Assembly: GCF_056746865.1 (NCBI RefSeq)
Contig: NZ_CM163382.1
Length of the DNA stretch: 64,000 nt
Direction: 5' to 3' (one strand)
Each line of letters begins with the position of its first letter. Within the stretch, counting starts at the first letter, position 1. The notes under the pieces are model-generated. The model did not search any database. It saw only the letters and a list, made by a program, of their open reading frames with translations, and had not been told where the DNA came from. Position numbers and translations under genes: made by a program. Shown one piece after another: positions 13,030 to 36,718 of the stretch.

Positions 13030-13049
13030 TGGGTTTGAAAATAGGAGCT

Positions 13050-14176
13050 GGGAGTTCTACCGCAGGGGCGGGGAACTCCAAGTGATGTCCATCATCGCAT
13101 CCAGTGCGTCCGGTTTATCCCCGCTGACGCGGGGAACACACATGAATGTCGGTTCAGACCGTGTTTTTACCCGGTTTATCCCCGCTGGCGCGGGGAACAC
13201 TGCCTCGGCGGCGGCTCTGCGCAACCGCGAAACGGTTTATCCCCGCTGGCGCGGGGAACACGTTAAACCGTGATGATCAGCAAAAGCTATTTCCGGTTTA
13301 TCTCCGCTGACGCGGGGAACACGTCAATAGGCGGCGTCCCGTAGCCGTCCCCTTCGGTTTATCCCCGCTGGCGCGGGGAACACTTGAAATGGTCCAGCAC
13401 TGCGACCGTCGGCCCCGGTTTATCCCCGCTGGCGCGGGGAACACGCTGGTGGCGCGGGCAAACGGAACAATCCCGCCGGTTTATCCCCGCTGGCGCGGGG
13501 AACACGCTAACCTATAACACGGAAAATCACACGCTAACGGTTTATCCCCGCTGGCGCGGGGAACACGGCCATTCCCCCAAGCAGACGCAGGAAGTTAACG
13601 GTTTATCCCCGCTGGCGCGGGGAACACCTGGATTTCACCTCAGCAAATGCTGGATGTGGCGGTTTATCCCCGCTGGCGCGGGGAACACCACCCCTGATAT
13701 TTTTGCCACCGTGGTTACTCCGGTTTATCCCCGCTGGCGCGGGGAACACAGAAATCAAACTCAGCGTGCAAATGGGGTAGCCGGTTTATCCCCGCTGGCG
13801 CGGGGAACACTTGCGTTATTTCTATCTGGTGAGTCGCGGCACCGGTTTATCCCCGCTGGCGCGGGGAACACGTATTTTTTATCGTCGCATGAGTCGCGGT
13901 AACCGGTTTATCCCCGCTGGCGCGGGGAACACTTCTGCCGCGCCAGCAAACGTATCGGCGGTCACGGTTTATCCCCGCTGGCGCGGGGAACACCCCAGGC
14001 CAAGCATTATATCCTGTGCGTCGTTCGGTTTATCCCCGCTGGCGCGGGGAACACACCAAGAAGCTGACGAATCAGCCCGACACGCACGGTTTATCCCCGC
14101 TGGCGCGGGGAACACCCAGTTTCATATGAGCCGCCGCGCTGGATCATCGGTTTATCCCCGCTGGCGCGGGGAACAC
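13050..14176 (-). CRISPR. Type I-E CRISPR array: 19 repeats of 29 bp (18 well formed plus one degenerate terminal repeat at 13050-13078) and 18 spacers of 32 bp
   Basis: The + strand reads CGGTTTATCCCCGCTGGCGCGGGGAACAC with an exact 61-bp period from 13111 to 14176. On the minus strand this is GTGTTCCCCGCGCCAGCGGGGATAAACCG. Variant repeats at 13111 and 13294 and the degenerate copy lie at the iap end, which fits a leader at the cas2 end. Confidence 0.97.
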
Positions 14177-14272
14177 ACTAAGCATACATAACTGTTTTTA
14201 AACAAATTTATTCCGCATCAACAATCTACCAACTAAATTAAAACATTTCCTTATTTTTAAAGAACAGATAAC
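14177..14272 (-). promoter_or_regulatory. AT-rich CRISPR leader between cas2 and the first repeat
   Basis: 96 bp of AT-rich non-coding sequence directly abutting the best-conserved repeat. Same orientation as the cas genes. Confidence 0.6.
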
Positions 14273-15482
<1,210 letters not shown>

Positions 15483-15486
<4 letters not shown>

Positions 15487-16133
15487 GCCTCTGCTCCGGG
15501 TTTGATCAGCATCAGACCACAGCCGAACGCGCGGCTTTTGCCATACCCCTGGCTCAGACGTTGCAGAAATAACCCGGGATCGGTGACCGTAAGCATCCCC
15601 GTATAATCCACGCTACTGAACTGGATCAGTTGCCGGGAGTTTTCCCGCCACAGTTGCTGTTGTCGGTAGGCATCAACCGAGGTATCCAGCAGTGTAAAAC
15701 CGCTTCTCTCCCCCTGCGCTGCCAGCCAGTCCAGCGCCGCCTGTTGTTGATGCAACCAGACATCACTTCCTTCCGCCTGCCCCCTCACCTGCCGTTTCGC
15801 CTCCATCAGCAGATCGTGGCGCTTGCCCGCTTTACAGATTGTTGGATTCGCCCGCAGGTTGAAACAAAGTTGTTGTCCGGTACGCAGCTCGGGCACAAAT
15901 GACCGGCATTCGATGGTGAACGTTTCACTTTCTGCCGGGCGTTCCTGCGACAGTACAAAAAAGCGAAACGCGCCCTGGAGTTCTTCCCGACGATAAAGAA
16001 ATTGCCTTTCTTTGCCGCCAGGGAAGAGATCCCACAGCCACTGATGCATCACATATTCCCCGCGATCCACCAGATGCAGCAACTGCGCAGGCGAAAGCTG
16101 GCCGGTATGTAAGGTTATTCTTGAGAGGTACAT
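15483..16133 (-). CDS. cas6e: Cas6e (CasE) crRNA endoribonuclease, non-K-12 I-E variant
   Basis: 216 aa from MYLSRITLHTGQ, with an AAGGAGG RBS upstream of the ATG at 16133. C-terminal G-rich motif GKSRAFGCGLMLIKP. The longer 262-aa track ORF was rejected. Confidence 0.85.
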
Positions 16134-16806
16134 GGTTCCTCCTTGCTGAGCCACGGCCCCTGATTGACGGTGCGTTCCCCAAACAACCATTGCTGACGAT
16201 TTAAAGGAACATCCCGGCGGCGCAATATTTTGCTCGCGACCAGGCCGTCGTGCTCCCCTTCCCACCAGCATTCATCCTGAAGTTTCGGGAGTGCGATTTT
16301 CAGGTCGTGGAAATGCTCCTGATACTGGTGATATGCGTTACGTAAAACATCAGACGCGTTGCCTTCAAGCAGTAACGGCGCAAGTGGTAATGCCAGCGGA
16401 TGACTTTTTCGCCCCAGATAAAGCGGAAAAACTGGATGGCGTAAACCGCCCTGCAACTGTTCGAGGCTGTAAGGCGCATCGGCTGTTGTTGCCACCGCCA
16501 CCATCCACCAGGCGTCGGTGTAGTAGTCGCGCCGGGAGATAATCGCGCTCAGAAGATCAGGGTCGCTCAACTCTTCGCGACGGCTGAAATAACGCGCTTT
16601 ACGCACCTCTTTTGGCATCTGGATTGTGTGATAATCCCGTGCCCAGCGCGGGTTACGGCTGGCGCAAACCACCAGTGAATAGTGGCGGTTAAACACGTTT
16701 AATCGTTCGGTATCATCACGCCGAATCCCTACCCCGGCAGCCAGCAGCCCCAGCAATGCTGAGCGCGAAGGCAGTTCATGGGTATGACGCACTTCGCCCG
16801 CTCCAA
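16115..16806 (-). pseudogene. cas5e: cas5e (casD) lacking its 5' end; homology stops at the island junction
   Basis: The frame reads ...GAGEVRHTHELPSRSALLGLLAAGVGIRRDD...PLYLGRKSHPLALPL (Cas5e hallmarks). The roughly 15-20 N-terminal codons, including the conserved WG segment, are missing. The TTG start at 16810 in the track is created by the junction. Confidence 0.8.
16792..16806 (+). repeat. Left island junction core (attL-like): CTTCGCCCGCTCCAA
   Basis: Identical 15-mer at 36704-36718. It lies inside the cas5e reading frame, where the reverse complement encodes GAGE. Confidence 0.75.
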
Positions 16807-16969
16807 ACAAACATTTCTCAACGTCTACTGAAGTCCATCAAATCCACGAATATCAAGCCTTTCAGCCATTTTCATAGCTTATTAACGTCTACTCACAACT
16901 ACCAGAATCTACACACAGAAGTGTATAGTAATGCGTATAGGACAAAATTTATTTTTTGGAGCTATACAC

Positions 16970-18184
16970 ATGCTGCTTTCAGACCTTGCTATCAGGCGCG
17001 CGAAGCCGAAAGAAAAGGCTTATACACTCAATGACGGTAACGGGCTTTCGTTACTCATTGAGCCGAACGGCTCGAAAGGGTGGCGACTACGTTACAGATT
17101 TGCAGGAAAGCCCAAAATGTTGTCGTTGGGCGTGTACCCTGATGTGTCTCTGTCTGATGCCAGAGCGGCAAGGGATGAGGCTAAAAGGCTTCTTGCTGGT
17201 GGTATAAATCCAAGTGAGGCCAGAAAAGCTCAAAAGCGAGAACAGGCGAGCAAATTTGGCAATACTTTTGAGGGTATCGCTCGCGAATGGTATGAAAAGC
17301 GGATCGACAGGTGGTCATCGTCATACGCCGAGGAAATGATCGAGACGTTTGAAAAAGACGTTTTTCCGTACATTGGCGGCAGGCCGATCGCAGAAATTAA
17401 GCCAATGGAGTTGCTTGCGGTTCTCTCCCGTCTTAATGACCGTGGGGCGACCGAAAAATTGCGTAAGGTTCGCCAGCGATGCGGCGAGGTGTTCCGGTAC
17501 GCAATCATCACCGGACGCGCTGAATATAACCCCGCACCAGATCTGGCAAGCGCATTTGCTCCACACAAAAAAGAGCATTATGCCTATTTGAAGGCCGACG
17601 AACTGCCGGAATTTTTCCGCGTTCTTAATACGTACACCGGAAGCCAGATCGTCAAGCTGGGTATGCGATTATTGATTCTGACAGGGCTCCGGCCAGGGGA
17701 ATTACGACAGGCAGAATGGCAGGAGATCGATTTTGATAATCGTTTGTGGGAAGTGCCTAAAGAACGAATGAAGATGCGCCGTCCTCATTGTGTGCCGCTT
17801 TCAGAACAGGCGATCGCTATTCTGGAACAGTTAAAACACATGACGGGGCAGTATCAGTTTATTTTCCCTGGTCGAATCCAGCACAGTAAGCCGATGAGTG
17901 AAATGGCGATGAACGTGCTTATTCGTCGTATTGGCTATTCTGGGCGCGTTACTGGTCATGGGTTCCGGCACACGATGAGCACGATTTTACATGAGCAGGG
18001 CTATAACACCGCGTGGATAGAAACGCAGCTTGCACACGTTGATAAGAACTCAATTCGTGGCACGTACAATCATGCGCAATATCTGGACGGGCGGCGCGAG
18101 ATGCTCCAGTGGTACGCCGACTATATGGACTCACTGGAACAGGGCGGCAACGTGGTGCATGGCAAGTTCGGAAAATGTGGATGA
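16970..18184 (+). CDS. int: P4-type tyrosine recombinase / integrase
   Basis: 404 aa from MLLSDLAIRRAKPKEKAYTLNDGNGLSLLIEPNGSKGWRLRYRF (typical P4-integrase N-terminus). Catalytic region HGFRHT...RGTYNH. GGAG RBS upstream. Confidence 0.92.
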   Translation: MLLSDLAIRRAKPKEKAYTLNDGNGLSLLIEPNGSKGWRLRYRFAGKPKMLSLGVYPDVSLSDARAARDEAKRLLAGGINPSEARKAQKREQASKFGNTFEGIAREWYEKRIDRWSSSYAEEMIETFEKDVFPYIGGRPIAEIKPMELLAVLSRLNDRGATEKLRKVRQRCGEVFRYAIITGRAEYNPAPDLASAFAPHKKEHYAYLKADELPEFFRVLNTYTGSQIVKLGMRLLILTGLRPGELRQAEWQEIDFDNRLWEVPKERMKMRRPHCVPLSEQAIAILEQLKHMTGQYQFIFPGRIQHSKPMSEMAMNVLIRRIGYSGRVTGHGFRHTMSTILHEQGYNTAWIETQLAHVDKNSIRGTYNHAQYLDGRREMLQWYADYMDSLEQGGNVVHGKFGKCG

Positions 18185-18312
18185 CTGGTTGAGTATACAG
18201 TAGTAGACTTTGAGCGACGAAAGAAAAAGCTGTGTCTAGGGTCGCTCCCGAAAAACCGTATACCTCGACGGGCTGGCACAGCCACTACAGTAGAGGACGC
18301 TGAGGTGTGCGT

Positions 18313-19110
18313 ATGATTGATATTCATGCCGAATTAAACGAATACAAAAAAGATTTTATTTCTTTACGTGAATTTCTTGAGGTCGTGCTTAAGGTCGCTG
18401 GTGATGATTATGATGTTTCAGATCTCATAACTTGGATACTCAGGAGAATAAGCGGAGAACATATCCGCCTGTACACAGTAAATGAATTTAAGCTGTTGGA
18501 ATCTTTTTGTAACCCGTATCGGGATGAATTTGATTATGATGTTCTTTATAGAAATCTGGATGCGGTTCGGAAACATGGTTGTTTACCTGGTGAGAGGGAT
18601 GAAAATGGTTTTCTGGTGTCCGGTTATTGGGAAGATCCCGAATTTGAGAACATTGGATTTATAAGGGGTGAAATTTTCGCAATTTTTCCCGATGTCCTTG
18701 ACGCGTTAACGAAGCTGGAAGGCGCTAACTCTTCTGAAAATGACGAGGTACAAGGACGCGATATTGAAAAGAAAGAGTTGCGTACAGAGGATGATTTATT
18801 ATCCCAAATCGCAATGCTGGAAAGAGAAAACGCAGAGTTAAGGGCAAGGATAGAGCAGTTAGAGCAAGAGCGCCCGATACACTTATATAAATACTGGGAT
18901 AAAGACCCATTAGCTAAGGCTATTGAGATTAGAAACAGAGAGTGGGCCAATTACGATCCAGAAAATGATTTTGCCACCAGGGGAAATCAAGAAGCGATAA
19001 CTAGGGAGCTTAAGCAGTGGGGGGCAAGTAATGCTCTTGCAACGCTCATAGAGAGGACTGCCTGCCCTATTAACCGAGACAACAGCCAAAAGAACGCAAA
19101 GCCGGATTAA
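18313..19110 (+). CDS. Hypothetical protein with a central acidic region and a coiled coil (LSQIAMLERENAELRARIEQLEQE)
   Basis: 265-aa ORF (ATG at 18313 after GAGGTG). Lower GC than the flanking int. I recognise no family motif. Confidence 0.6.
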   Translation: MIDIHAELNEYKKDFISLREFLEVVLKVAGDDYDVSDLITWILRRISGEHIRLYTVNEFKLLESFCNPYRDEFDYDVLYRNLDAVRKHGCLPGERDENGFLVSGYWEDPEFENIGFIRGEIFAIFPDVLDALTKLEGANSSENDEVQGRDIEKKELRTEDDLLSQIAMLERENAELRARIEQLEQERPIHLYKYWDKDPLAKAIEIRNREWANYDPENDFATRGNQEAITRELKQWGASNALATLIERTACPINRDNSQKNAKPD

Positions 19111-19125
19111 CGCACCATACCGCAT

Positions 19126-19270
19126 ACCCTGAGGGTGATTTACTGTTACCCTGAGGGTATTTTTTTATCTTCCCCGTCAATTTTACCATCACCCTTAGGG
19201 TAGATTTCCTCCCGATTACCATCACCCTTAGGGTTAATTTCCTTCCGGTAACCATTAGGCCTGAGGGTAT
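19126..19270. promoter_or_regulatory. Array of five CCYTNAGGGT palindromic motifs, including a ~30-bp direct repeat, upstream of alpA
   Basis: ACCCTGAGGGT at 19126 and 19148. TACCATCACCCTTAGGGT(A/T)(G/A)ATTTCCT(C/T)CC at 19184-19213 and 19217-19246. CCTGAGGGTAT at 19260. Confidence 0.5.
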
Positions 19271-19337
19271 GAAAATATTCGTTATTTCTGTGCCATGATT
19301 ACCTCGTCAAATTGAGTAGACGTTATGAGGTAAATAG

Positions 19338-19535
19338 ATGTCAAATACGCTTATTCGTTTAACAGAAGTTCAGCGTAGAACTGGATATAGCAAGGCATGG
19401 ATTTATCGCCTTATGGGGCAAGGTAAATTTCCTGCATCAGTTAAAATTGGCTCGCGAGCGATTGCTTTCGTTGAAAGTGAAATTGACGAATGGATCAATC
19501 AGCGTATTGCCGAATCACGCGGAACGGCTGCCTGA
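19338..19535 (+). CDS. alpA: AlpA/Vis-family small DNA-binding regulator or excisionase
   Basis: 65 aa: LIRLTEVQRRTGYSKAWIYRLMGQGKFPASVKIGSRAIAFVESEIDEWI, the classic AlpA HTH pattern. Confidence 0.85.
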   Translation: MSNTLIRLTEVQRRTGYSKAWIYRLMGQGKFPASVKIGSRAIAFVESEIDEWINQRIAESRGTAA

Positions 19536-25411: not shown

Positions 25412-25828
25412 CTAACTAGGTGTTTGCTGTTGTTCAATGTATTGGCGGATGATGGATATTGGCGCACCTCCGCAGCTACTGGCAAAATAGCTGGGACTCC
25501 ATAAAACGCCTTTGTAGTAATACCTGACTGCAATATCTGGTCGATCTCGTCGCAATAATCTACTCGATACGCCCTTGAGACTGTTCACCAGGGTGGATAT
25601 CGCCAATTTGGGAGGATAGTTAATTAGCAGGTGAACGTGATCTCGTTCTCCATCCATTTCAACCAGTTCAGCTTCAAAATCAGCACATACACTTGAAAAG
25701 TAAGTGCGTAGTTTTTCTATTGCGTCATGGTCAAAAATCTGGCGTCGGTACTTGGTAACAAAGACCAGGTGAACGTGCATCAGGAAGACACAGTGCCTTC
25801 CACGTCGGATATCGGTTTCTTTTTTCAT
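25412..25828 (-). CDS. tnpA: IS200/IS605 Y1 (HUH) transposase TnpA
   Basis: 138 aa from MKKETDIRRGRHCVFLMHVHLVFVTKYRR, with HUH motif HVHLL and catalytic-Tyr region SPSYFASSCGG. The longer 178-aa track ORF was rejected. Confidence 0.9.
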   Translation of the reverse strand: MKKETDIRRGRHCVFLMHVHLVFVTKYRRQIFDHDAIEKLRTYFSSVCADFEAELVEMDGERDHVHLLINYPPKLAISTLVNSLKGVSSRLLRRDRPDIAVRYYYKGVLWSPSYFASSCGGAPISIIRQYIEQQQTPS

Positions 25829-25850
25829 AGGCCAAAGTATAATTTGGCAT

Positions 25851-27059
25851 ATGAAACGACTACAAGCTTTCAAATTCCAGTTAAGACCAAATGGAAAACA
25901 GGAGCGTGAAATGAGGCGCTTCGCGGGCGCATGTCGTTTCGTTTTCAATCGTGCTCTGGCGCTTCAGAATGAGAATCATGAGGCCGGGAACAAATATATT
26001 TCTTATGCAAAGATGACTTCCTGGCTGGTTGAATGGAAAAATGCTACTGAAACGCAATGGCTTAAAGATTCTCCCTCACAGCCATTGCAGCAGTCACTGA
26101 AAGACCTTGAGCGAGCCTACAAAAATTTCTTTCAGAAGCGTGCCGCTTTTCCCCGATTCAAAAAGCGGGGACAGCATGATGCATTCCGCTATCCGCAGGG
26201 TGTTAAGCTCGATCAGGAAAACAGCCGTATTTTTCTGCCGAAACTGGGCTGGATGCGCTACCGGAACAGCCGTCAGGTCACGGGTGTTGTGAAAAATGTC
26301 ACTGTCAGCCAGTCCTGCGGTAAGTGGTACATCAGTATTCAGACAGAAAGTGAAGTATCAACTCCGGTTCACCCTTCAGCATTAATGGTCGGGCTGGATG
26401 CTGGCGTGGCTAAACTCGCCACGCTGTCAGATGGCACGGTCTTTGAGCCTGTAAACAGTTTTCATAAAAACCAGAAGAAGCTGGCGAGACTTCAGCGCCA
26501 GTTAAGCCGCAAGGTTAAATTCAGCAACAACTGGCAGAAGCAGAAACGCAAAATACAGCGACTGCATTCCCGTATCGCAAATATCCGCAGGGACTACCTT
26601 CACAAAGTCACAACGACCATCAGCAAAAACCACGCAATGATAGTCATTGAGGATTTGAAGGTCAGCAACATGTCAAAGTCAGCCTCGGGTACGGTCAGCC
26701 AGCCGGGGCGCAATGTCCGGGCAAAATCAGGTTTAAACCGTTCGATACTGGATCAGGGCTGGTATGAAATGCGCCGTCAGCTTGAGTACAAGCAGCTCTG
26801 GTGTGGCGGTCAGGTGCTTGCTGTTCCGCCAGCGTACACAAGCCAGCGTTGCGCGTGCTGTGGTCATACAGCGAAAGAAAATCGCCTGTCACAAAGTCAA
26901 TTCAGATGCCAGGTATGTGGATATACAGCGAACGCCGATGTAAACGGCGCTCGTAACATTTTAGCGGCGGGGCACGCCGTTCTTGCCTGTGGAGGGATGG
27001 TGCAGTCAGGCCGCCCGTTGAAGCAGGAACCCACCGAAATGATTCAGGCGACAGCCTGA
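25851..27059 (+). CDS. tnpB: TnpB (OrfB_IS605) RuvC-like RNA-guided nuclease
   Basis: 402 aa. RuvC triad contexts GLDAGV, VIEDLK and ADVNGARNI, plus a zinc finger CACCGH...CQVCG. All appear intact. Confidence 0.9.
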
Positions 27060-27692: not shown

Positions 27693-30224
27693 ATGCCAGT
27701 CGTACCAACAGTATCCGGACGTCAGGTTGAGAGCCGTGGAGTTCAGTCAGCAGGCTTGCAGACGTTTTCTCAGCCAGGTATTGGTGATGCTTTTGTTCGG
27801 GCAGGGGCAGAGGCAATTGATGTTTTTGGTCAGGCAAAACAGCGTGCCAATATTGCCTTGATTCAGGAGGCATCCCTTAAACTCAGTCAGATAGGCAGTG
27901 ATCTGCTGAATAATCCTGAAACAGGATTGCTTAACCTGAAAGGGAAAAATGCTATTGGAAAAGGCCATGAGTATACACAGCAGTTTGATGCTCAGATCGA
28001 ACAACTGGCTATGTCGCTGCCGGATGAACAGGCTCGTAATGCTTTCATGCAGCAGGCGCAGCAGCAGCGTATTCAGTTCGCTACGCAGGCCGGGAGGTAC
28101 GAGATAGGGCAAATAAATGCCTACGAAGAAGGCCAGTTTCAGGCGACACTGCTGAATAATGGTAAAAATGCCTCAGCATTATATGGCGACAACGCAGCAT
28201 ACATATTGGCTAATACGCAAACTTTCCAGCAAATTGAGGATTACGGTATTGCGCATGGCTGGAGCGACGAGCAAATCCAGGCCAAGAAAATCGAGTTTAA
28301 AGAAGCAACAGCAAAAGCAACTGCTCAAAATGCTATTGGAGCAAACTATCTTCAGGTAAGACAGCAAAATGGCGAGTTAAGCGATACTGCTGCTGGATCT
28401 CGCCGTGCTGTAGCAGATAGTGGCTCTTCCGATCGTACCCGCGGTATACGCAACAATAACCCCGGCAATCTTGAATACAGCAAAACTAATCCGTGGATTG
28501 GGCAGACTGGTGATGATGGTCGCTTTGCCAAATTCGAAACCCCTGAACACGGTATTCGCGCGCTTGGTCGCAATTTGCTGTCGTATCAGCGTCAGGGTTA
28601 TGACACCATCAGCGAAATAATTAATCGCTGGGCACCGGCCAGTGATGATAATAAAACTGATGCTTATATACGGGCAGTATGTGCTCAGCTCGGTGTAACT
28701 CCTGACCAGCCGCTTGACGCATCAAATCCTGACACACTGAAATCTCTGTGCAAAGCAATTATTCATCATGAGCAAGGCAGTCAGCCGTACAGTGATCAGC
28801 AATTGGCCGCTGGCGTTAGTGCCGCACTGGGGCTTTCTCAGCTACCGACAAAAAATAAACGTTATACCGGTGTAGCCTGGTTCGATGCTTTAAGTGAATC
28901 AGATCAGGCCAGCGTGTTGCGACAGACGGATGCATTAGCCAGACAGCAGCAGGCTGAATATAGAACGATGCTCGAAAGCCGGGTTCGCGATGCAACGGCT
29001 GCGTATATGCGTGGCGTTGAATTTCCTAACCCGCCTGGTGAGGGTGAGTTCATTGCTGCTTATGGTGTCAGAGAAGGAAACCTGCGATATACCGAGTTCA
29101 GAAATTTGCAGATCGCCGGACAGTATATAGGCTCTTTCCGCAACATGCCGACAAGCAGCATTACCGCATATGTTGAGCAATTACGCCCGGATACTGGTGA
29201 GACAGGGGAGGGGTATGCGTCTCGTGCGGAGTTATTCGACCGGGTATCGGCGGCAGCCACGAAGGTAATAACCCAGAGGCAGAATAATCCGTTTAGTGCA
29301 GCGGTGGAAATCGGAGCCTATAAGCCGATCACCAGCAACAACCCTGACGACATCACTGCCGAGGTGGCTAACCGTTTCTCGTCGCAGGAAAGCTTACGCG
29401 CGTTGGGAATTAATGCCCCACTCCTCAACAGTGAAGAGGCGGCTGCGCTGGCACAGCAGGTGCGCGGCACTCAGAACGTTGACCAGACAATTAAACTGTT
29501 GCAGAGCATGGGGGAGAAGCTGCCTGCGCCAGCAATACGGCAGGTGGCATCTGTAATTGCTCCGAACAGTGCGGCAACAGCCTATTCTGCGCTGCTGCTG
29601 GGCACGCCGGATAACCAGTACGACAACACCAGGCCGACGATCCCATATAGTCAGTTCATCGGGTATAAGCCGACGATGAACAAGTACGACGTTGCAAAGG
29701 TTATTCTTTCCGGCGACCAACTACTGAATCCGACGAAGGCCATGAAGAATGCGGGCATAACTCCGGTACAGTTGCCGAGCGAAGATAAGATGAAAGACGC
29801 TTTCGACGAACAGGTAGGTAATGCATTTGCCCGTAACCCGCAGTTACGCCAGATCAGTTATAGCCTTTTCAAAGCCGCTTACGCAGGAATAGCTTATCAA
29901 TCTGGTGATGCCTCTACGGTAAGAACCAGTATGCCTGATACAGACATTGTAGCTGATGCCGTGAAGTATGCTACTGGCGGTATATACAATGGTTTTAATG
30001 GCGGCGACGTTGTAATGCCTTTTGGCATGGATAAATCTACTTTCAAAGATCGCTATACCACATCTGCGAAACAAGCACTGAAAGATGCCGGACTTAACGT
30101 AAATGCAGTGTCAAATTTCACGCCAGTTAATATCGGCAATAACCGGTATCGGCTTGTAAATGGTAGCGGACGCTGGGCAACAGATCCCAGAACCAATAAA
30201 GCTATTGTCGTGAGGGTTGAATAA
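27693..30224 (+). CDS. Large protein (843 aa); candidate phage internal-virion/ejection-type protein with an RNNNPGN-motif central domain
   Basis: Strong AGGAGG RBS. N-terminus MPVVPTVSGRQVESRGVQSAGLQ. Q/A-rich helical regions. GIRNNNPGNLEY at nt 28449-28469. No nucleotide-binding motifs seen. The function call is tentative. Confidence 0.75.
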   Translation: MPVVPTVSGRQVESRGVQSAGLQTFSQPGIGDAFVRAGAEAIDVFGQAKQRANIALIQEASLKLSQIGSDLLNNPETGLLNLKGKNAIGKGHEYTQQFDAQIEQLAMSLPDEQARNAFMQQAQQQRIQFATQAGRYEIGQINAYEEGQFQATLLNNGKNASALYGDNAAYILANTQTFQQIEDYGIAHGWSDEQIQAKKIEFKEATAKATAQNAIGANYLQVRQQNGELSDTAAGSRRAVADSGSSDRTRGIRNNNPGNLEYSKTNPWIGQTGDDGRFAKFETPEHGIRALGRNLLSYQRQGYDTISEIINRWAPASDDNKTDAYIRAVCAQLGVTPDQPLDASNPDTLKSLCKAIIHHEQGSQPYSDQQLAAGVSAALGLSQLPTKNKRYTGVAWFDALSESDQASVLRQTDALARQQQAEYRTMLESRVRDATAAYMRGVEFPNPPGEGEFIAAYGVREGNLRYTEFRNLQIAGQYIGSFRNMPTSSITAYVEQLRPDTGETGEGYASRAELFDRVSAAATKVITQRQNNPFSAAVEIGAYKPITSNNPDDITAEVANRFSSQESLRALGINAPLLNSEEAAALAQQVRGTQNVDQTIKLLQSMGEKLPAPAIRQVASVIAPNSAATAYSALLLGTPDNQYDNTRPTIPYSQFIGYKPTMNKYDVAKVILSGDQLLNPTKAMKNAGITPVQLPSEDKMKDAFDEQVGNAFARNPQLRQISYSLFKAAYAGIAYQSGDASTVRTSMPDTDIVADAVKYATGGIYNGFNGGDVVMPFGMDKSTFKDRYTTSAKQALKDAGLNVNAVSNFTPVNIGNNRYRLVNGSGRWATDPRTNKAIVVRVE

Positions 30225-32284
30225 TGTCTGATGTTTTTTCTTTGGCTCCAGAAGGTCAGGCATGGATTGACGACAAAACAGTTGCCAACCCAGCAAGGCC
30301 AGAAGACTACGATCCGACTCCCTTCCAGGGTTCAGGTACTGCACTTTTGAGCGGCGTGGCGGAGGGGGCTCTCGGTCTCGCGCAGTCTGCCGTCGGATTC
30401 AGCAAGCGTCTGATTAGCGATCCGGCATTTACCGCAGACGTGGCACCGACAGTTAATATTTTTCGGGAGATGTTCCCTGATGCTGACAAAACACTGAATG
30501 ATACATACGACACGATCGGAAAACAGTTACAGGATGCCCGCAGCTATGTGAAGCCTGATGCAGGCAGCCAGGGAATGGCGGCTGAGGTATTAAATGAGCT
30601 TGGTAAATTTGTTCCTGCAATCGGAACAACTATGTTTGGTGGTCCGCTCATCGGCGCTGCTACAGCCTTCAGTTCTACGTATGAGCAGTCCTATCAGGAT
30701 TTTAAAGGGAAGGGAGTAGACGAGGCTACAGCGCGTAACCTGGCAACGCAGCAGAGCCTTTTCAATGCTGTGGGTATGGCCTTACCCGCTGCCGTCGGCA
30801 CCACACTGGCAACGCGCATTGCCTCAGGTGTGGCAATCAACACCGGATTCGGTGGACTGAACCGTTACTCAGTAGGCGCAACACTGGAGGAAAAAGGCTA
30901 CACGGAGATGGCAAAACAGTATCGGGTATTTGACGGTCAGGCGATGTTAGTCGATGCCGTTTTAGGCGGGGTCTTTGGTGGCGTTCATCACCTGACTACC
31001 CATAATAACCATGATGGTACAGAGTCGAACATTTCTGCAGAAGAAATAAAATCAACTTTTGGTGAACATTATCAGCAATCTCCTGATGGTAACATTGAGT
31101 CAATGGTTCGTGATTTATCTGATTCAGGAGTAATAGAACTTATTAATGAACCAGCAATAAAAAATAGTGATGGAGAAATACTTCTGAATAAAGGTCATGT
31201 GACAGTAGCTTCCGGAAAAGAACCAATAATAAGAATAAATATTAATGGATTAAAAGACCATGAAGAACTGTTAGAAACCCTTCATCACGAGGCGCTTCAT
31301 CTTGAGCAGCGCCATTACCCTGACTGGAAGGCCAGAAAGCTAGCTAATGCTGTACTTAAATCTGCAAACAAGCATTCTGACTATCCTGAATTTGCATATG
31401 GGATGTCACAATATTATGAATATAAGAAAAGGGGTGAGTACCCTGAAACATATCCTGAGTGGTTGTACGCTGAAGAAGTTGCCGCACATGCAGTAAATCC
31501 ATCTCTAAAGACAAGCGTTTCATCATGGGAAAAAATTATTTCAGGTTTTAAAGCCTATATATTCAGATACAGTGGTATTCAGGTTGGAACCGTTACACCT
31601 GAGCAGTTACGGTTACTCGTAAGTATGCGTCTTCGCAATATGAAACTGGAAGCCGCAGTAGAAAAAGTTTTTGGTATCCGGGCGAGGGAAAGAATAAAAC
31701 CAAGCGATATTGATGCAGCCCACATTTTGAATGAGGGGCTTCATTACGATATTGAATCGTCACCAGTGCTTCATACCAGCAATGAGAGCATCAACAGCCA
31801 TGTTGACGCCATGGATGAAGCATACAGGCAACTTAATGATGGTCAGCCTGTAAATGTTGGGGGGATGGCGCGAGGGCTTGATGGTCCATTGCGATCAGAT
31901 ATATCTGATACTTACCAAGAGCAATACCATGAAATACAAAAGGTTTTTGAAGAAAATGGTGTCAGATACGAAACATCATCAGAGCCAATTAGTGAATCGC
32001 CTGTCCCTCGTGCTGAAAGTGCTTTCTCATCGGCTGGTGAACACAGAGGGGACATCAGCGTTGATCCAGATACAGGGCAGGTTCTCTCATCCAACAGCTA
32101 TGACCTTATGGCTGCCAGGGACATGGCTGTTGCCAATCCTGAGCTGACTATAGCTCACCCGGAAACCGGAAACCCGACAAAACTTTCTGATCTCCTGGCT
32201 GAGTTGGATGAACAGATTAAGACAGTCCAGAACGAATCGAAGGTTTATTCTGTAGCAGCAGCGTGCTTCTTGAGGAACCCATAA
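30224..32284 (+). CDS. Large protein (686 aa) with Gly/Ala-rich hydrophobic segments and an internal HExxH (zincin-like) module
   Basis: TAATG overlap with the upstream gene. Hydrophobic G/A-rich stretches (GTTMFGGPLIGAATAF, AVGMALPAAVGTTLATRIASGVAINTGFGG). HHEALH at nt 31283-31300 within an AT-rich segment. Confidence 0.75.
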   Translation: MSDVFSLAPEGQAWIDDKTVANPARPEDYDPTPFQGSGTALLSGVAEGALGLAQSAVGFSKRLISDPAFTADVAPTVNIFREMFPDADKTLNDTYDTIGKQLQDARSYVKPDAGSQGMAAEVLNELGKFVPAIGTTMFGGPLIGAATAFSSTYEQSYQDFKGKGVDEATARNLATQQSLFNAVGMALPAAVGTTLATRIASGVAINTGFGGLNRYSVGATLEEKGYTEMAKQYRVFDGQAMLVDAVLGGVFGGVHHLTTHNNHDGTESNISAEEIKSTFGEHYQQSPDGNIESMVRDLSDSGVIELINEPAIKNSDGEILLNKGHVTVASGKEPIIRININGLKDHEELLETLHHEALHLEQRHYPDWKARKLANAVLKSANKHSDYPEFAYGMSQYYEYKKRGEYPETYPEWLYAEEVAAHAVNPSLKTSVSSWEKIISGFKAYIFRYSGIQVGTVTPEQLRLLVSMRLRNMKLEAAVEKVFGIRARERIKPSDIDAAHILNEGLHYDIESSPVLHTSNESINSHVDAMDEAYRQLNDGQPVNVGGMARGLDGPLRSDISDTYQEQYHEIQKVFEENGVRYETSSEPISESPVPRAESAFSSAGEHRGDISVDPDTGQVLSSNSYDLMAARDMAVANPELTIAHPETGNPTKLSDLLAELDEQIKTVQNESKVYSVAAACFLRNP

Positions 32285-35040
32285 TGAAACAGGCATGTGT
32301 GGAAGCTATTGCGCAGACACTTGGTCGCCAGCCAAAGGCTGATGAGCTGAAAAATATTGAAGATCGTATCAAAGAAGCTGTGCAGCATGTGCACAGAAAG
32401 AATGCCAAAGAAGGCAAAAGTGGTATTCCTGATGCTCAAACATACATGGATGCAGCAGAACTGGTACGCCAGCGTGTGGTTCATGATGTGTACAAGAAAA
32501 GACAGCGTGTTGCCCAGAATGCGATCGCCATCAGTAAAATTACTGACACTCTCGATGCTAACATCCCGCCTGATCAGCAGACACCTGTTAATTTGCAGCA
32601 GTTTATTTTTGCTGGCCGACGATCGAGAGACAAAGCTGATATCTCCGTTACTTCTGCTGAAGAACTTGCAATTGGGGCATATCAGGACTGGTCCCGTCAG
32701 CTCAGTGCTGAACTTCTAAAAGCAGGTGATGACGTCCGCAAATTCTTCGAGCAGAGCAGGGCGCTTGGAGAGCAGCGGTTTCGGAGTGTATTCGACAGGC
32801 AGGCGGCAAAGTCTGCACAACTCCAGATCCTGAAAGAAATATATGGCGAAGATACCGGGAATCCCCTGGCGAAGAAAATTGCACAGATTTGGAAGGATGT
32901 AACAGGCCGTGTTCGTCATGAGATGAACGACAATGGCTTTGACATAGGCCTGCGAGAAGACTGGCATACGCCATATGTGGATGATGCTGACCTTATTCGC
33001 AATGCCGGGCGCGAAGAATGGCTGGCATCGTTACCAGTGGCAGAGCAAGCTACAGCACGTCTTTCAGGTCGCCAGCCACCGATTGAGTTTGCCCGCCAGA
33101 AATGGGTTGATGACGCTTACAACACGCAGGATCGCAGCAATTACGTTAATCCTGACGGCAGCATTATGAATGACGTCGAGTACCGTCAGGCACTGGAAGC
33201 GATCTTTGAAACGAAGGCCACTGATGGGGCAAACAAAATTGAGCCTGGTACATTTATGGGAGCCGGAGGAATAAAGAGCCGTGGTTCTCAGCACAGGGTG
33301 ATGGCGTTCAAGGATGCGCAGTCACACTTCGCCTATATGGAACGATACACTCAGCAGCCGCTGGTGGGGGTGATGATGTCGCACCTGCAATCATCATCCA
33401 GGGATTTGGGCGTCGTTAAAGCCTTTGGTCCGGACGCCGAAAGAAACTTTTCCCTGGTACTGGATCGCATCTATAAGCGCGCAGTAACAGGCGGGAAACG
33501 CAAAAAAGAAATGGAGGATGAGGCCAAATTAGTTGCCCGTATGTTCAACTCAATGGCTGGCCTAAATGGTGTCGCTTCATCGAGTGTGTTCTCTTCAGCA
33601 GTTGGTGGTCTGCGTAACCTGATGACCAGCGCCATGCTTGGCACCAGCGTACTGACAGCAACCAGCGACCAGGCAATTATGCGGGCAAATGCGCAGGCGC
33701 TGGGCTTTACCCGTGGTGGAATGCGGCTTTCCGTTAACACTATCAAAAACCTGTTTAGTGGAGATGCCAAAAAGGCGAATGCTGAACTCGGTCTGCTGGT
33801 GGATTCACATGCTGCTGTGGTTTCGAAAATGGGCGGGTTTGACTTGTCTCGCGGCATAACTGGCTGGTTCGCAGAGAAGACACTGAAGTGGTCCGGGCTG
33901 ATCGCTATGGACCGCGCAAACAAAGCGTCGTTTGGTCTCCTGATGTACAAAAACATTGGCGAGCTGACCAGAAAATTTAAGACGCTGGACGATATGAAAG
34001 GAACCGATAAAACCATTCTGGCTAACAAGGGATGGAGCAATGAGGACTGGGCCATCATGGCAGCGGCAGAACTCAGGCCGATGACTACTGCCGGGCATAT
34101 GGGGATGACGCCAGACGCGATTTACGCTGTGCCCGATAACGTAATAGCCGACATTATGGCAGACCGTATTACCCGGATTCGTGCCGGGAGTGAAAAGGCA
34201 CTGGCAGCCCTTGGAGATCTCCCTCCAGAACGCCTGAAACGGATGAAAGAAGCATTCGACGCTGAGGCTGAGCAGACCATCACGCGCATGATTCGTAATG
34301 CACGCGCTGAAGCAGCCCAGAAATTGCTGGGAATTACGCACGGTGAGATGACCAATGCTGTGACCACCGCTACGGGTATTGATACATATGCCCGTGATGA
34401 TGCTGGCGAGTTAATGAAGAGCTTCATGCTCTTCAAAACAACCCCATTTGCTGGATTTCGGCAACTTGTTAACAGAACACGGGATTTGGACACCGTTCCG
34501 GCCATTAAATTTCTGGCCTCATATATCGGGGGAACAACTCTTGCTGGTATGTTTGCGATCCAGATGAACAGTTTGTTAAATGGTAATGATCCGCTGGATA
34601 TGACAAAACCAACCACATGGGTTCAGGCTTTACTGAAAGGTGGTTCGTTCGGTATCTACGGTGATTTTATTTTCCAGGACCATACGCAATATGGCTCCAG
34701 CATCGGTGCCACTATGGGTGGCCCTGTGTTGAGCTTTGCAGAGCAGTTAACAAAATTACTGATTACTAACCCACAGAAGGCTCTACAGGGTGAAGAAACA
34801 TCATTCGGTGCCGATGCACTGAAAACAGCCCGCATGATCACCCCATTCGCAAACCTGTGGTATGCGAAAGCGATAACCAATCACCTGATATTGCAACAAC
34901 TTCAGGAGATGGCAAACCCTGGTTACAATGATCGAGTAAGGGACCGCGCGCAACGGGAGTTCGACATAACGAGTTGGTGGGAACCGGGTGCTATTGCGCC
35001 ACGTAGAGCACCGGATTTTGGAAAGGCGGTGGGGAACTGA
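32284..35040 (+). CDS. Large protein (918 aa), unknown function; candidate ejection/structural-type protein
   Basis: ATG at 32284 in a TAATG overlap (preferred over the track start at 32263). Long uninterrupted frame with only antisense shadow ORFs opposite. C-terminal hydrophobic G-rich region (IGGTTLAGMFAIQMN...GGSFGIYGDFIF). Confidence 0.75.
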   Translation: MKQACVEAIAQTLGRQPKADELKNIEDRIKEAVQHVHRKNAKEGKSGIPDAQTYMDAAELVRQRVVHDVYKKRQRVAQNAIAISKITDTLDANIPPDQQTPVNLQQFIFAGRRSRDKADISVTSAEELAIGAYQDWSRQLSAELLKAGDDVRKFFEQSRALGEQRFRSVFDRQAAKSAQLQILKEIYGEDTGNPLAKKIAQIWKDVTGRVRHEMNDNGFDIGLREDWHTPYVDDADLIRNAGREEWLASLPVAEQATARLSGRQPPIEFARQKWVDDAYNTQDRSNYVNPDGSIMNDVEYRQALEAIFETKATDGANKIEPGTFMGAGGIKSRGSQHRVMAFKDAQSHFAYMERYTQQPLVGVMMSHLQSSSRDLGVVKAFGPDAERNFSLVLDRIYKRAVTGGKRKKEMEDEAKLVARMFNSMAGLNGVASSSVFSSAVGGLRNLMTSAMLGTSVLTATSDQAIMRANAQALGFTRGGMRLSVNTIKNLFSGDAKKANAELGLLVDSHAAVVSKMGGFDLSRGITGWFAEKTLKWSGLIAMDRANKASFGLLMYKNIGELTRKFKTLDDMKGTDKTILANKGWSNEDWAIMAAAELRPMTTAGHMGMTPDAIYAVPDNVIADIMADRITRIRAGSEKALAALGDLPPERLKRMKEAFDAEAEQTITRMIRNARAEAAQKLLGITHGEMTNAVTTATGIDTYARDDAGELMKSFMLFKTTPFAGFRQLVNRTRDLDTVPAIKFLASYIGGTTLAGMFAIQMNSLLNGNDPLDMTKPTTWVQALLKGGSFGIYGDFIFQDHTQYGSSIGATMGGPVLSFAEQLTKLLITNPQKALQGEETSFGADALKTARMITPFANLWYAKAITNHLILQQLQEMANPGYNDRVRDRAQREFDITSWWEPGAIAPRRAPDFGKAVGN

Positions 35041-36699: not shown

Positions 36700-36718
36700 T
36701 TCCCTTCGCCCGCTCCAA
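36700..36718 (+). other. Right island junction (attR-like): an 18-nt copy of a tRNA 3' end (TTCCCTTCGCCCGCTCCA) plus A; not a complete tRNA
   Basis: It matches the T-arm/acceptor/CCA end of E. coli tRNA-Gly(CCC) glyU as I remember it (…GGTTCGATTCCCTTCGCCCGCTCCA). Upstream sequence has no tRNA body. The 15-nt core is repeated at 16792-16806. Confidence 0.7.

What the first reader, a model, noticed from the sequence alone, without database searches (positions are those of the whole stretch)
18313..19110. Orphan low-GC gene wedged between int and alpA
This 265-aa protein has no motif I can assign. It has an acidic centre and a strong heptad coiled coil (ERENAELRARIEQLEQE), and its gene has lower GC than int. 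It sits in the integrase-proximal cargo slot, where satellites and prophages often carry accessory or anti-phage genes.
Basis: inference. Interest (0 to 1): 0.4.

Follow-up and report, generated by a model that had tools for sequence, protein, structure and literature searches.

The report
Likely regulator of satellite switch gene alpA
The orphan gene between int and alpA is probably not cargo: it looks like a core, swappable regulator that binds a phased row of palindromes in front of alpA, the gene that wakes this phage-satellite island, which makes it a testable candidate for how such islands sense their helper phage.

Summary
The ORF (18313-19110, +, 265 aa) is real, has lower GC than int and matches no described family. 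It is not variable cargo. In 21 genome loci and 80 viral-contig loci, a single gene of about 230-355 aa almost always lies 100-330 nt upstream of alpA. A conserved RNA leader (Rfam int-alpA, 18229-18296) precedes that gene in most loci scanned.

The protein has four parts: a variable N-terminal domain, an acidic disordered linker, a four-heptad zipper with Asn at an a position, and a conserved 70-aa helical C-terminal domain.

Between its stop codon and alpA lie four copies of ACCCTnAGGGT, the only copies in 64 kb. A degenerate fifth copy abuts the predicted -35 region of the alpA promoter. The spacings are multiples of about 11 bp.

The palindrome tracks the C-terminal domain type, not AlpA or Int. 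Islands whose AlpA is 97% identical but whose slot protein has a different C-terminal domain carry other repeats.

I conclude that this is the sequence-specific regulator of the alpA promoter, about 0.65-0.7 for either sign. I lean to a helper-sensing activator, with an Stl-like repressor as the main rival. DNA binding is inferred: no fold or sequence match supports it. This is a new variant of a known kind. Interest 0.58.

The parts
16793..16805 (+). attL core (TTCGCCCGCTCCA), left end of the 19.9-kb island
   Evidence: The exact 13-nt repeat recurs at 36705-36717. Related islands match the window from 16792 onward.
16970..18184 (+). int, a P4-type tyrosine integrase
   Evidence: Pfam Arm-DNA-bind_3, Phage_int_M and Phage_integrase domains. 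RefSeq start as in L001.
18229..18296 (+). int-alpA RNA motif (Rfam RF02996), the structured leader that ends 17 nt before the ATG of the ORF
   Evidence: 46.9 bits against a gathering score of 35.8. The same motif lies 14-17 nt before the slot gene in most slot classes scanned.
18313..19110 (+). The ORF in question ('X'), 265 aa, proposed alpA-promoter regulator
18313..18726 (+). N-terminal alpha/beta domain (residues 1-138). It is variable or mosaic between homologues and is proposed as the signal-input domain.
   Evidence: pLDDT about 87. Variable in alignment A1. Found with a different C-terminal domain in P0094, P0097 and P0101. Present as a separate 106-aa ORF in L007 and L009.
18727..18786 (+). 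Acidic disordered linker (residues 139-158)
   Evidence: pLDDT below 50 over residues 139-157. pI 4.66.
18787..18873 (+). Leucine-zipper-like coiled coil (residues 159-187) with Asn173 at an a position
   Evidence: Single helix over residues 159-186. L169, L176 and L183 are invariant. Heptad register.
18874..19077 (+). Conserved C-terminal helical domain (residues 188-255; W211, E247, A250, C251, P252 and R255 invariant among C-terminal domains of this family), proposed DNA-recognition domain
   Evidence: Alignments A1 and A4. Modelled alone: pLDDT 89.3, pTM 0.72. Occurs as a free-standing protein of 64-67 aa.
19124..19167 (+). Intrinsic-terminator-like hairpin formed by O1 and O2, followed by U7, directly after the stop codon
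   Evidence: -24.8 kcal/mol, z = -5.8. Terminator scan.
19126..19136 (.). Operator O1, ACCCTGAGGGT
19148..19158 (.). Operator O2, ACCCTGAGGGT
19191..19201 (.). Operator O3, ACCCTTAGGGT, inside the 33-bp tandem unit 19183-19215
19224..19234 (.). Operator O4, ACCCTTAGGGT, inside the 33-bp tandem unit 19216-19248. An extra direct half-site (TACCAT) lies 6 bp upstream.
19258..19268 (.). Degenerate promoter-proximal site, GGCCTGAGGGT, whose right half abuts the predicted -35 region
   Evidence: Conserved block in the footprint alignment. My reading of the sequence.
19270..19299 (+). Predicted alpA promoter: weak -35 (TGAAAA, 19270-19275) and extended -10 (TGcCATGAT, 19291-19299)
   Evidence: This block is conserved across genera and slot types. 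It is an inference: the tool's sigma-70 scan reported no site.
19338..19535 (+). alpA, the proposed regulated target
   Evidence: Pfam Phage_AlpA, E = 2.4e-19.

Best explanation
The ORF encodes the island's own regulator of the alpA promoter.

Shown. It is a modular protein made of a variable N-terminal domain, an acidic flexible linker, a short zipper and a conserved C-terminal helical domain. Four perfect ACCCTnAGGGT palindromes and one degenerate copy lie between its stop codon and alpA, in helical register, and nowhere else in the window. This palindrome type follows the C-terminal domain type across islands. It does not follow AlpA or Int.

Inferred. The zipper, which has Asn at an a position, makes a parallel dimer. 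Each C-terminal domain reads one ACCCT half-site. Dimers fill the phased array cooperatively down to the weak site that abuts the poor -35 region of the alpA promoter. The protein is made constitutively with int, downstream of the int-alpA RNA leader. The terminator formed by O1 and O2 insulates alpA from that transcript. The variable N-terminal half receives the cue, most likely a helper-phage protein.

I lean to positive control: the bound and activated array recruits RNA polymerase to the alpA promoter and starts excision and replication. A regulator of alpA of either sign is about 0.65-0.7. The activator version given here is about 0.4.
For: - **Conserved order.** The order int, X, alpA is conserved in Enterobacterales, Orbaceae and Pasteurellaceae, with Int at 37-71% identity.
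- **X travels with alpA.** X at 95% identity or more is in 141 complete E. coli genomes. This int covers at least 80% in only 78. X plus spacer plus alpA occurs as one block in 142.
- **Pairing without int.** Distant homologues keep X, then about 158 nt, then an alpA-like gene, with no adjacent int.
- **Palindromes are local.** CCCTNAGGG occurs 4 times, all within 19127-19233, against 0.37 expected in the window. Allowing one mismatch adds no site anywhere in 64 kb.
- **Covariation.** Of 42 distinct intergenic regions next to a type-A C-terminal domain, 38 carry the motif. Of the other 40, only 2 do, and both lie next to broken type-A genes. At the level of protein clusters at 70% identity the counts are 12 of 17 against 1 of 31, Fisher p = 1e-6.
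- **AlpA is not the determinant.** L054-L059 have AlpA 97% identical to this one but a type-B protein and TGGTG/CACCA-type repeats. Type-D loci have ACCGCAATTGCGGT twice.
- **Deep relatives.** They keep the same 5-1-5 palindrome shape as ACTATnATAGT, although their AlpA is only 20-29% identical.
- **Spacing and position.** Adjacent sites are 21-24, 32-33, 42-44 or 54-55 bp apart. They sit at fixed distances from the alpA ATG across genera: -206, -174, -151 and -108.
- **Footprint.** In an 18-locus alignment only the palindromes and the core promoter are conserved.
- **Positive sign.** The proximal site is centred near -44 next to a poor -35 region (my reading). In Vibrio PICMI satellites the gene between int and alpA is constitutive with int and required for helper-induced excision (PMC10803314).
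Against: - **Linkage.** Covariation could partly reflect physical linkage, because the operators lie inside the same swappable cassette.
- **O1 and O2 have another reading.** They also form a plausible terminator, so they need no protein-binding explanation.
- **The promoter is my prediction.** The sigma-70 scan found none, so the positions -44 and -35 are uncertain.
- **The array could repress.** A constitutively made protein next to int is also where Stl-type repressors sit.
- **The slot protein is not universal.** Characterised islands without a slot protein (EcCICFT073, EcCIMP1) still show helper-dependent alpA induction.
Confidence: 0.4

Rival explanations
1. The DNA-binding model is the same but the sign is opposite. 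X is the island's maintenance repressor, a functional analogue of SaPI Stl. It is made constitutively with int and coats the phased operator array, which occludes the -35 and upstream region of the alpA promoter. A helper-phage protein that binds the variable N-terminal domain removes it.
For: - X sits between int and the first induction gene and is probably co-transcribed with int, which is the Stl position (PMC6092414).
- Operator specificity has diversified into several cassette types next to nearly identical alpA genes. This resembles the hetero-immunity regions of temperate phages (my knowledge).
- The variable N-terminal half resembles the variable inducer-binding parts of Stl.
- In several genera the proximal element is a wide-spaced pair of X half-sites (CCCTCAtgccTGAGGG). 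It occupies the place where other loci carry a different palindrome (CCATTAGgcCTAATGG), so the two may compete.
Against: - The best sites lie 80-175 bp upstream of the predicted start, and only a degenerate site touches the promoter.
- In PICMI115, deleting the positional analogue abolished excision instead of derepressing it.
- X has no XRE-type helix-turn-helix and is not divergent from alpA.
Confidence: 0.27
2. X is a protein cofactor of the Int-AlpA excision machinery, as proposed for IOLG of PICMI satellites. The palindromes are then read by another factor: AlpA, a host protein or a helper protein.
For: - The PICMI authors propose that Int, IOLG and AlpA form the excision complex (PMC10803314).
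- No known DNA-binding fold was found in X.
Against: - The palindromes are 2.3 kb from attL and occur only in front of alpA.
- They do not follow AlpA (97% identical AlpA with other repeats) or Int (37-100% identity with the same repeats).
- X stays paired with alpA where no int is adjacent.
Confidence: 0.12
3. X is an accessory or anti-phage cargo gene in an integrase-proximal hotspot.
For: - Low GC and orphan status.
- The slot shows turnover between unrelated protein classes.
- Satellites do carry defence hotspots (PMC13586616; only its abstract was seen).
Against: - The slot holds one gene of similar size in all but a few of more than 100 loci (two loci had no ORF called, and a few genera split it into two ORFs), never a multi-gene system.
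- X and 10 representative occupants of other classes give no PADLOC hit.
- A common RNA leader precedes the slot and class-specific operators follow it.
- 50,697 phage genomes hold no homologue.
- Better cargo candidates lie at 27693-35040.
Confidence: 0.05
4. The palindromes act only at the RNA level, as terminator or attenuator hairpins between the int-X transcript and alpA. They have no link to the X protein.
For: O1 and O2 fold into a hairpin of -24.8 kcal/mol followed by U7.
Against: - O3 and O4 have no U-run. The U-run after O2 is absent in most genera.
- The sequence is conserved, not only the ability to pair.
- Spacings are multiples of about 11 bp and the distances to the alpA ATG are fixed.
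- The motif switches with the C-terminal domain type.
Confidence: 0.05

Closest known systems
IOLG / ICG genes of Vibrio PICMI satellites (Nat Commun 2024, PMC10803314)
   Same: Both are single genes of unknown function between int and alpA in a phage satellite. Both positions hold many unrelated families (13 in PICMIs, at least 5 here). IOLG is expressed with int and required for helper-induced excision.
   Different: IOLG overlaps int by 1-13 nt, whereas here a 128-nt spacer carries a structured RNA. No operator arrays or DNA binding were reported for IOLG. Sequence relationship was not tested. The host clade differs.
Stl / Rpr master repressors of SaPIs and Gram-positive PICIs
   Same: Both lie next to int and in front of the induction genes. 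Both are modular, with one part conserved for DNA and another variable for helper proteins. In both, the operators lie in the adjacent intergenic region (PMC6092414, PMC6695447).
   Different: Stl has an N-terminal XRE-type helix-turn-helix and is divergent from its target. X has no detectable helix-turn-helix, its conserved domain is C-terminal, and it is co-directional with alpA. The sign of control is unknown.
Activator-dependent promoters with phased upstream sites (class II activators such as lambda CI at PRM, Mu Mor/C and OmpR/PhoB; from my knowledge)
   Same: Both have a poor -35 region, a proximal site centred in the low -40s, and further sites on the same face of the helix.
   Different: There is no homology. 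The promoter here is a prediction, and the 5-1-5 palindrome with extra direct half-sites at 6-bp spacing is unusual.
bZIP / GCN4-type leucine zippers (RefSeq names some orthologues 'bZIP transcription factor')
   Same: Four heptads with Leu at d positions and Asn at one a position.
   Different: There is no basic region: the segment before the zipper is acidic. Pfam bZIP_2 scores 14.0 bits against a cut-off of 22.3. The RefSeq name is a misnomer.
int-alpA RNA motif (Rfam RF02996)
   Same: The element at 18229-18296 is a member (46.9 bits).
   Different: It is catalogued as an sRNA between int and alpA. Here and in 17 other loci it sits 14-17 nt before the start of the slot gene where that start is clear, in most slot classes scanned (type B was not covered). 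This suggests a cis-acting leader.

Membership tests
bZIP transcription factor | Basic DNA-contact region directly N-terminal to the zipper | tested here: not met
   Residues 139-158 have D+E = 6 against K+R = 4 (pI 4.66) and are predicted disordered.
bZIP transcription factor | Pfam bZIP_1 or bZIP_2 score above the gathering threshold | tested here: not met
   bZIP_2 scores 14.0 bits against 22.3, E = 0.055, over the zipper only.
bZIP transcription factor | Heptad Leu repeat | tested here: met
   L169, L176 and L183 are invariant and N173 is at an a position.
SaPI Stl / PICI Rpr repressor | N-terminal XRE/CI-type helix-turn-helix | tested here: not met
   No HTH_3 or HTH_31 hit, even at E up to 5 on the N-terminal domain alone.
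SaPI Stl / PICI Rpr repressor | Transcribed with int and divergently from the induction operon | tested here: not met
   int, X and alpA are all on the + strand.
SaPI Stl / PICI Rpr repressor | Represses island genes and is relieved by a helper-phage protein | not testable with these tools
   Needs reporter, binding and interaction assays.
PICMI IOLG/ICG (positional class) | Single gene of unknown function between int and alpA of a satellite | tested here: met
PICMI IOLG/ICG (positional class) | Start overlaps the int stop by 1-13 nt (iolg) | tested here: not met
   A 128-nt spacer holds RF02996. X would count as an 'icg'-type neighbour at best.
PICMI IOLG/ICG (positional class) | Required for helper-induced excision | not testable with these tools
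   Needs a deletion mutant and a helper phage.
PICMI IOLG/ICG (positional class) | Sequence homology to one of the 13 IOLG/ICG families | not tested
DUF6387 (PF19924), occupant of the same slot in other islands | Pfam score above threshold | tested here: not met
   X gives no hit. The slot proteins of L088 and L093 do hit it, as does L031 according to RefSeq.
Known anti-phage defence proteins (PADLOC-DB 2.0) | Match to any defence model | tested here: not met
   No families at E up to 1. The same holds for 10 other slot proteins.
Gram-negative PICI-type satellite (context of the gene) | Zones in the order int plus alpA, Bro/AntA, primase/SSB replication, late or cargo, bounded by att repeats | tested here: met
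   Pfam domains. att repeats. Zone scheme from PMC10111431.
Gram-negative PICI-type satellite (context of the gene) | Helper-phage-dependent induction and packaging | not testable with these tools
   No capsid-redirecting or packaging genes were recognised in this island.
Rfam RF02996 int-alpA RNA (leader of the gene) | Covariance-model score above the gathering score | tested here: met
   46.9 bits against 35.8, over the full model length 1-71.

The most novel reading that the evidence does not exclude
The int-alpA interval of a large clade of Gram-negative satellites is a swappable 'sensor cassette'. It has three parts: a common structured RNA leader, a modular protein, and that protein's own phased operators reaching into the -35 region of the alpA promoter. 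The protein's variable N-terminal domain recognises a helper-phage product. Its C-terminal domain, a DNA-binding fold not yet described, recognises the operators. Exchanging the cassette would re-wire which helper wakes the island. This would answer the open question of how helper phages induce alpA in these islands.
Probability: 0.3. Interest if true: 0.8.

Novelty: new variant of a known kind. Interest (0 to 1): 0.58.

Why it matters
Work on Gram-negative phage-inducible islands says two things remain open. Whether these islands have a global repressor is 'unclear', and the way the helper phage switches on alpA is unknown (PMC6092414; PMC10803314). This gene, its operator array and its RNA leader give a concrete and cheaply testable candidate for that missing link in a widespread island clade. 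Complete E. coli genomes carrying it include the O104:H4 outbreak lineage. It would also define an unannotated protein family, about 124 clusters at 50% identity, and would correct the misleading 'bZIP transcription factor' label. If the cassettes prove orthogonal, each pairing a regulator with its own operators, they could serve as parts for engineered satellites.

Tried and rejected
- **Family searches of X.** Pfam, NCBIfam, PHROGs and PADLOC gave only coiled-coil noise. Pfam at E up to 5 on the isolated N- and C-terminal domains gave nothing.
- **PDB sequence profile of the C-terminal domain.** The best hit was a CsbD-like protein at E = 0.019, which I judged spurious.
- **Phage genomes.** tblastn against 50,697 phage genomes found no match.
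- **Fusions to known domains.** Scanning 118 family representatives turned up one Peripla_BP (LacI-family ligand-binding) hit. The member was not identified, and the sequence I suspected (P0054) shows no obvious LacI-like region. I did not use it.
- **AlpA or Int as reader of the palindromes.** Rejected on covariation.
- **Excisionase-like winged helix in the N-terminal half.** I considered one because of the motif YGFRRxEL. No profile supports it, so I do not claim it.
- **EcCIMP1 and EcCICFT073.** I checked whether these characterised islands carry a homologue. EcCIMP1 has a 427-bp gap with no homologue. In EcCICFT073 alpA appears to be the second ORF.
- **K-12 CP4-57 yfjH.** It lies between intA and alpA but on the opposite strand, and has no family match.

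Full report
**1.
An ATG-initiated ORF of 265 codons lies at 18313-19110 on the + strand. It sits between a P4-type tyrosine integrase (16970-18184) and an AlpA-family gene (19338-19535). RefSeq annotates the identical CDS in other E. coli genomes as 'hypothetical' or 'coiled-coil domain-containing' protein. Its GC content is 41.4% against 50.7% for int. Pfam, NCBIfam, PHROGs and PADLOC give no hit apart from sub-threshold coiled-coil matches. The heptad repeat is real: I166, L169, N173, L176, I180 and L183.

**2. Setting.**
The gene lies in a 19.9-kb island bounded by the 13-nt repeat TTCGCCCGCTCCA at 16793 and 36705. The gene order is int, X, alpA, antA, bro, an Icd-like gene, DUF4222, a DUF927 primase and SSB. 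An IS200/IS605 element follows, and then three large unannotated ORFs. This is the zone order integration, Bro, replication, late that has been described for Gram-negative PICI-type satellites (PMC10111431). In other strains the same island sits at tRNA-Gly next to actS.

**3. The protein family and its architecture.**
A search of 5.8 billion proteins found 43 homologues, those with a source name all Enterobacterales (E. coli, Salmonella, Citrobacter, Yersinia). An exhaustive profile search of 1.84 billion cluster representatives found 124. Conservation is concentrated in the zipper and the last 70 residues or so, with the pattern DPLxLAIxxRNxEWxNYD...IE.VACPI.R. The N-terminal half is mosaic.

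AlphaFold2 predicts four parts:
- a confident alpha/beta N-terminal domain (residues 1-138, pLDDT about 87);
- a disordered acidic linker (139-157);
- one long helix (159-186);
- a small helical C-terminal domain.

Modelled alone, the C-terminal domain reaches pLDDT 89 and pTM 0.72. The modules are separable. The C-terminal domain occurs as a free-standing protein of 64-67 aa. The N-terminal domain occurs fused to an unrelated C-terminus. In Kluyvera and Pantoea the N-lobe is a separate 106-aa ORF followed by a 152-aa protein that carries the zipper and C-terminal domain.

**4. It is a core gene tied to alpA, not cargo.**
In 21 loci drawn from one genome per species, a homologue lies 70-330 nt upstream of an alpA gene in nearly every case. 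These loci cover Kluyvera, Raoultella, Pantoea, Xenorhabdus, Photorhabdus, Cedecea, Sodalis, Orbaceae and Pasteurellaceae. Where an integrase is present upstream, it is 37-71% identical to this one.

In complete E. coli genomes X occurs in 147 genomes, 141 of them at 95% identity or more. This particular integrase covers at least 80% in only 78. X, the spacer and alpA occur together as one block in 142. O104:H4 and APEC strains carry the same X and alpA behind an integrase only 66% identical, at other insertion sites. Metagenomic relatives keep the arrangement X, about 158 nt, alpA-like gene, with no integrase next to it. No homologue exists in 50,697 phage genomes.

**5. The slot is a swappable cassette.**
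Upstream of alpA genes 75-100% identical to this one (80 IMG/VR loci), the preceding gene falls into at least five classes by its C-terminal domain:
- type A, which is X;
- type B (...LILRP..IGRR), which aligns with type A and looks like a distant homologue;
- type C;
- type D;
- DUF6387, plus a few others.

A few loci had no clean call: none was made for two, and some calls were truncated or mis-started. Otherwise each locus has one gene, mostly of about 230-355 aa, and none of the ten representatives scanned (nor X) hits a defence model. The left border of the cassette is the Rfam int-alpA RNA motif (RF02996). In the window it lies at 18229-18296 (46.9 bits against a gathering score of 35.8), 17 nt before the ATG. 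In 17 of 20 other loci scanned, covering most slot classes, the same motif was found; where the start codon is clear it ends 14-17 nt before the slot gene. The one clear type-B locus gave no hit. The right border lies between the -35 and -10 regions of the predicted alpA promoter. From about the -10 region onward the sequence is shared by the type-A and type-B cassettes compared; one type-D locus differs there.

**6. The palindromes.**
Four copies of ACCCTnAGGGT lie at 19126, 19148, 19191 and 19224. They are the only matches in 64 kb even when one mismatch is allowed. A degenerate fifth copy, GGCCTGAGGGT, lies at 19258-19268.

The motif follows the type-A C-terminal domain across loci:

| Comparison | Type A | Not type A | Source |
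|---|---|---|---|
| Distinct intergenic regions with the motif (one mismatch allowed) | 38 of 42 | 2 of 40, both next to broken type-A genes | |
| Protein clusters at 70% identity with at least two sites | 12 of 17 | 1 of 31 (Fisher p = 1e-6) | |

The type-A clusters that lack strict sites carry the variant ACTATnATAGT or ACTATnAGGGT. Loci with AlpA 97% identical to this one but a type-B protein have TGGTG/CACCA-type repeats instead. Type-D loci have ACCGCAATTGCGGT twice. The motif persists where AlpA is only 20-29% identical and where Int is 37-100% identical. So neither AlpA nor Int is the determinant.

Adjacent sites are 21-24, 32-33, 42-44 or 54-55 bp apart, which are multiples of about 11 bp. 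Across genera they sit at fixed distances from the alpA ATG: -206, -174, -151 and -108. In an 18-locus alignment only the palindromes and the core promoter are conserved. This is the signature of a protein that binds one face of the helix cooperatively. The only component that varies with the motif is the C-terminal domain of the slot protein.

**7. Promoter geometry (inferred).**
The block TGcCATGAT (19291-19299) is conserved across all cassettes and looks like an extended -10 region. The -35 position is poor (TGAAAA). The degenerate site is centred near -44 and the good sites near -78, -111, -154 and -176 (my reading). The tool's sigma-70 scan reported no promoter, so these positions are provisional. 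O1 and O2 also fold as a hairpin of -24.8 kcal/mol followed by U7, right after the stop codon. That is a likely terminator which insulates alpA from int-X transcription in the E. coli variant.

**8. What did not help.**
Fold and sequence comparisons give no support for, or against, DNA binding by the C-terminal domain. The helix-Gly-helix pattern (ELxxRGFSxxQAxxIE) resembles a helix-turn-helix by eye only. The DNA-binding claim rests on genomic covariation, site phasing and the adjacent dimerising zipper.

**9. Mechanism.**
I commit to X as the sequence-specific regulator of the alpA promoter, at about 0.65-0.7 for either sign. The sign cannot be read from the sequence.
- For activation: the weak -35 region, a proximal site in the low -40s, and the PICMI precedent. 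There the gene between int and alpA is constitutive with int, and its deletion abolishes helper-induced excision (PMC10803314).
- For repression: the Stl-like position next to int, constitutive expression, and hetero-immunity-like diversification of operator specificity.

I lean to activation (0.4) over repression (0.27). In both versions the variable N-terminal half is the natural input for a helper-phage product. Characterised islands without a slot protein (EcCICFT073, EcCIMP1) are still helper-inducible. The cassette is therefore one solution among several.

**10. Comparison with what is known.**
The closest known thing is positional: IOLG/ICG of PICMIs. The closest by logic is Stl/Rpr, or a class II activator. 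X fails the defining tests for bZIP (no basic region), Stl (no helix-turn-helix, not divergent), DUF6387 and the defence families. The RNA leader is a bona fide member of RF02996. Its constant position just before the start codon, wherever it was found, suggests a cis-acting role rather than the catalogued sRNA role.

**11. Novelty and value.**
This is an uncharacterised family with no described fold relative, in a role that the field lists as an open question. It remains a computational inference, so I score interest at 0.58 and class it as a new variant of a known kind.

Noticed in passing
window 18229-18296 (+): The Rfam int-alpA RNA (RF02996) lies directly upstream of the ORF. In 17 of 20 related loci it was also found, ending 14-17 nt before the slot gene wherever the start codon is clear, in most slot classes scanned. 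This points to a cis-acting leader rather than a free sRNA.
   Followed up: partly
window 16115-16810 (-) and the junction at about 16792: The island's attL abuts the 5' end of cas5e/casD instead of tRNA-Gly. casC, casB, casA and cas3 are absent, while the right flank is the usual ETT2 type III secretion locus. The same junction exists in NZ_CP122722.1, where the 3' part of int, X and alpA are deleted. It looks like an inversion or rearrangement at attL that broke the type I-E cas operon.
   Followed up: partly
window 14563-15486 (-): cas1e carries an in-frame stop at codon 200, so the remaining adaptation module is also decayed. A CRISPR array lies at about 13030-14200.
   Followed up: partly
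window 25412-27059: An IS200/IS605-type element lies inside the island after ssb: a Y1 transposase at 25412-25948 (-) and TnpB at 25851-27059 (+), which matches Cas12f models. It is absent from the otherwise identical island in strain SCU-105.
   Followed up: partly
window 27693-35040 (+): Three contiguous large ORFs (843, 686 and 925 aa) in the island's late zone have no Pfam or PADLOC hit. They are the real candidates for cargo or an undescribed defence system.
   Followed up: partly
window 16817-16829, 16883-16895 and 19313-19325: AACGTCTACT repeats lie between attL and int, with an inverted copy in the alpA leader just before its ribosome-binding site. They are candidate AlpA/excisionase sites that would link excision to alpA autoregulation.
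   Followed up: no
window 19183-19248; loci L044 and L049: The 33-bp unit that carries O3 or O4 is a tandem repeat. Its copy number varies from 1 to 3 among otherwise near-identical E. coli islands, so the number of operators is polymorphic.
   Followed up: partly
L007 3651-4447 and L009 3633-4432: In Kluyvera, Pantoea and several other genera the slot protein is split into a 106-aa N-lobe ORF and a 152-aa ORF with the zipper and C-terminal domain. In E. coli relatives the two are fused.
   Followed up: partly
L112 (E. coli K-12 CP4-57, yfjH): In the element where AlpA was first defined, the gene between intA and alpA (yfjH, 318 aa, no family) is on the opposite strand and divergent from alpA. 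This is an Stl-like arrangement that may be another version of the same slot.
   Followed up: no
L007, L008, L031, L062, L065, L075, L091, L105 and L017 (Bro zones): Many related islands carry P4-type immunity RNAs (Rfam C4 and isrK) downstream of alpA. None reaches the gathering score in this window's island.
   Followed up: no
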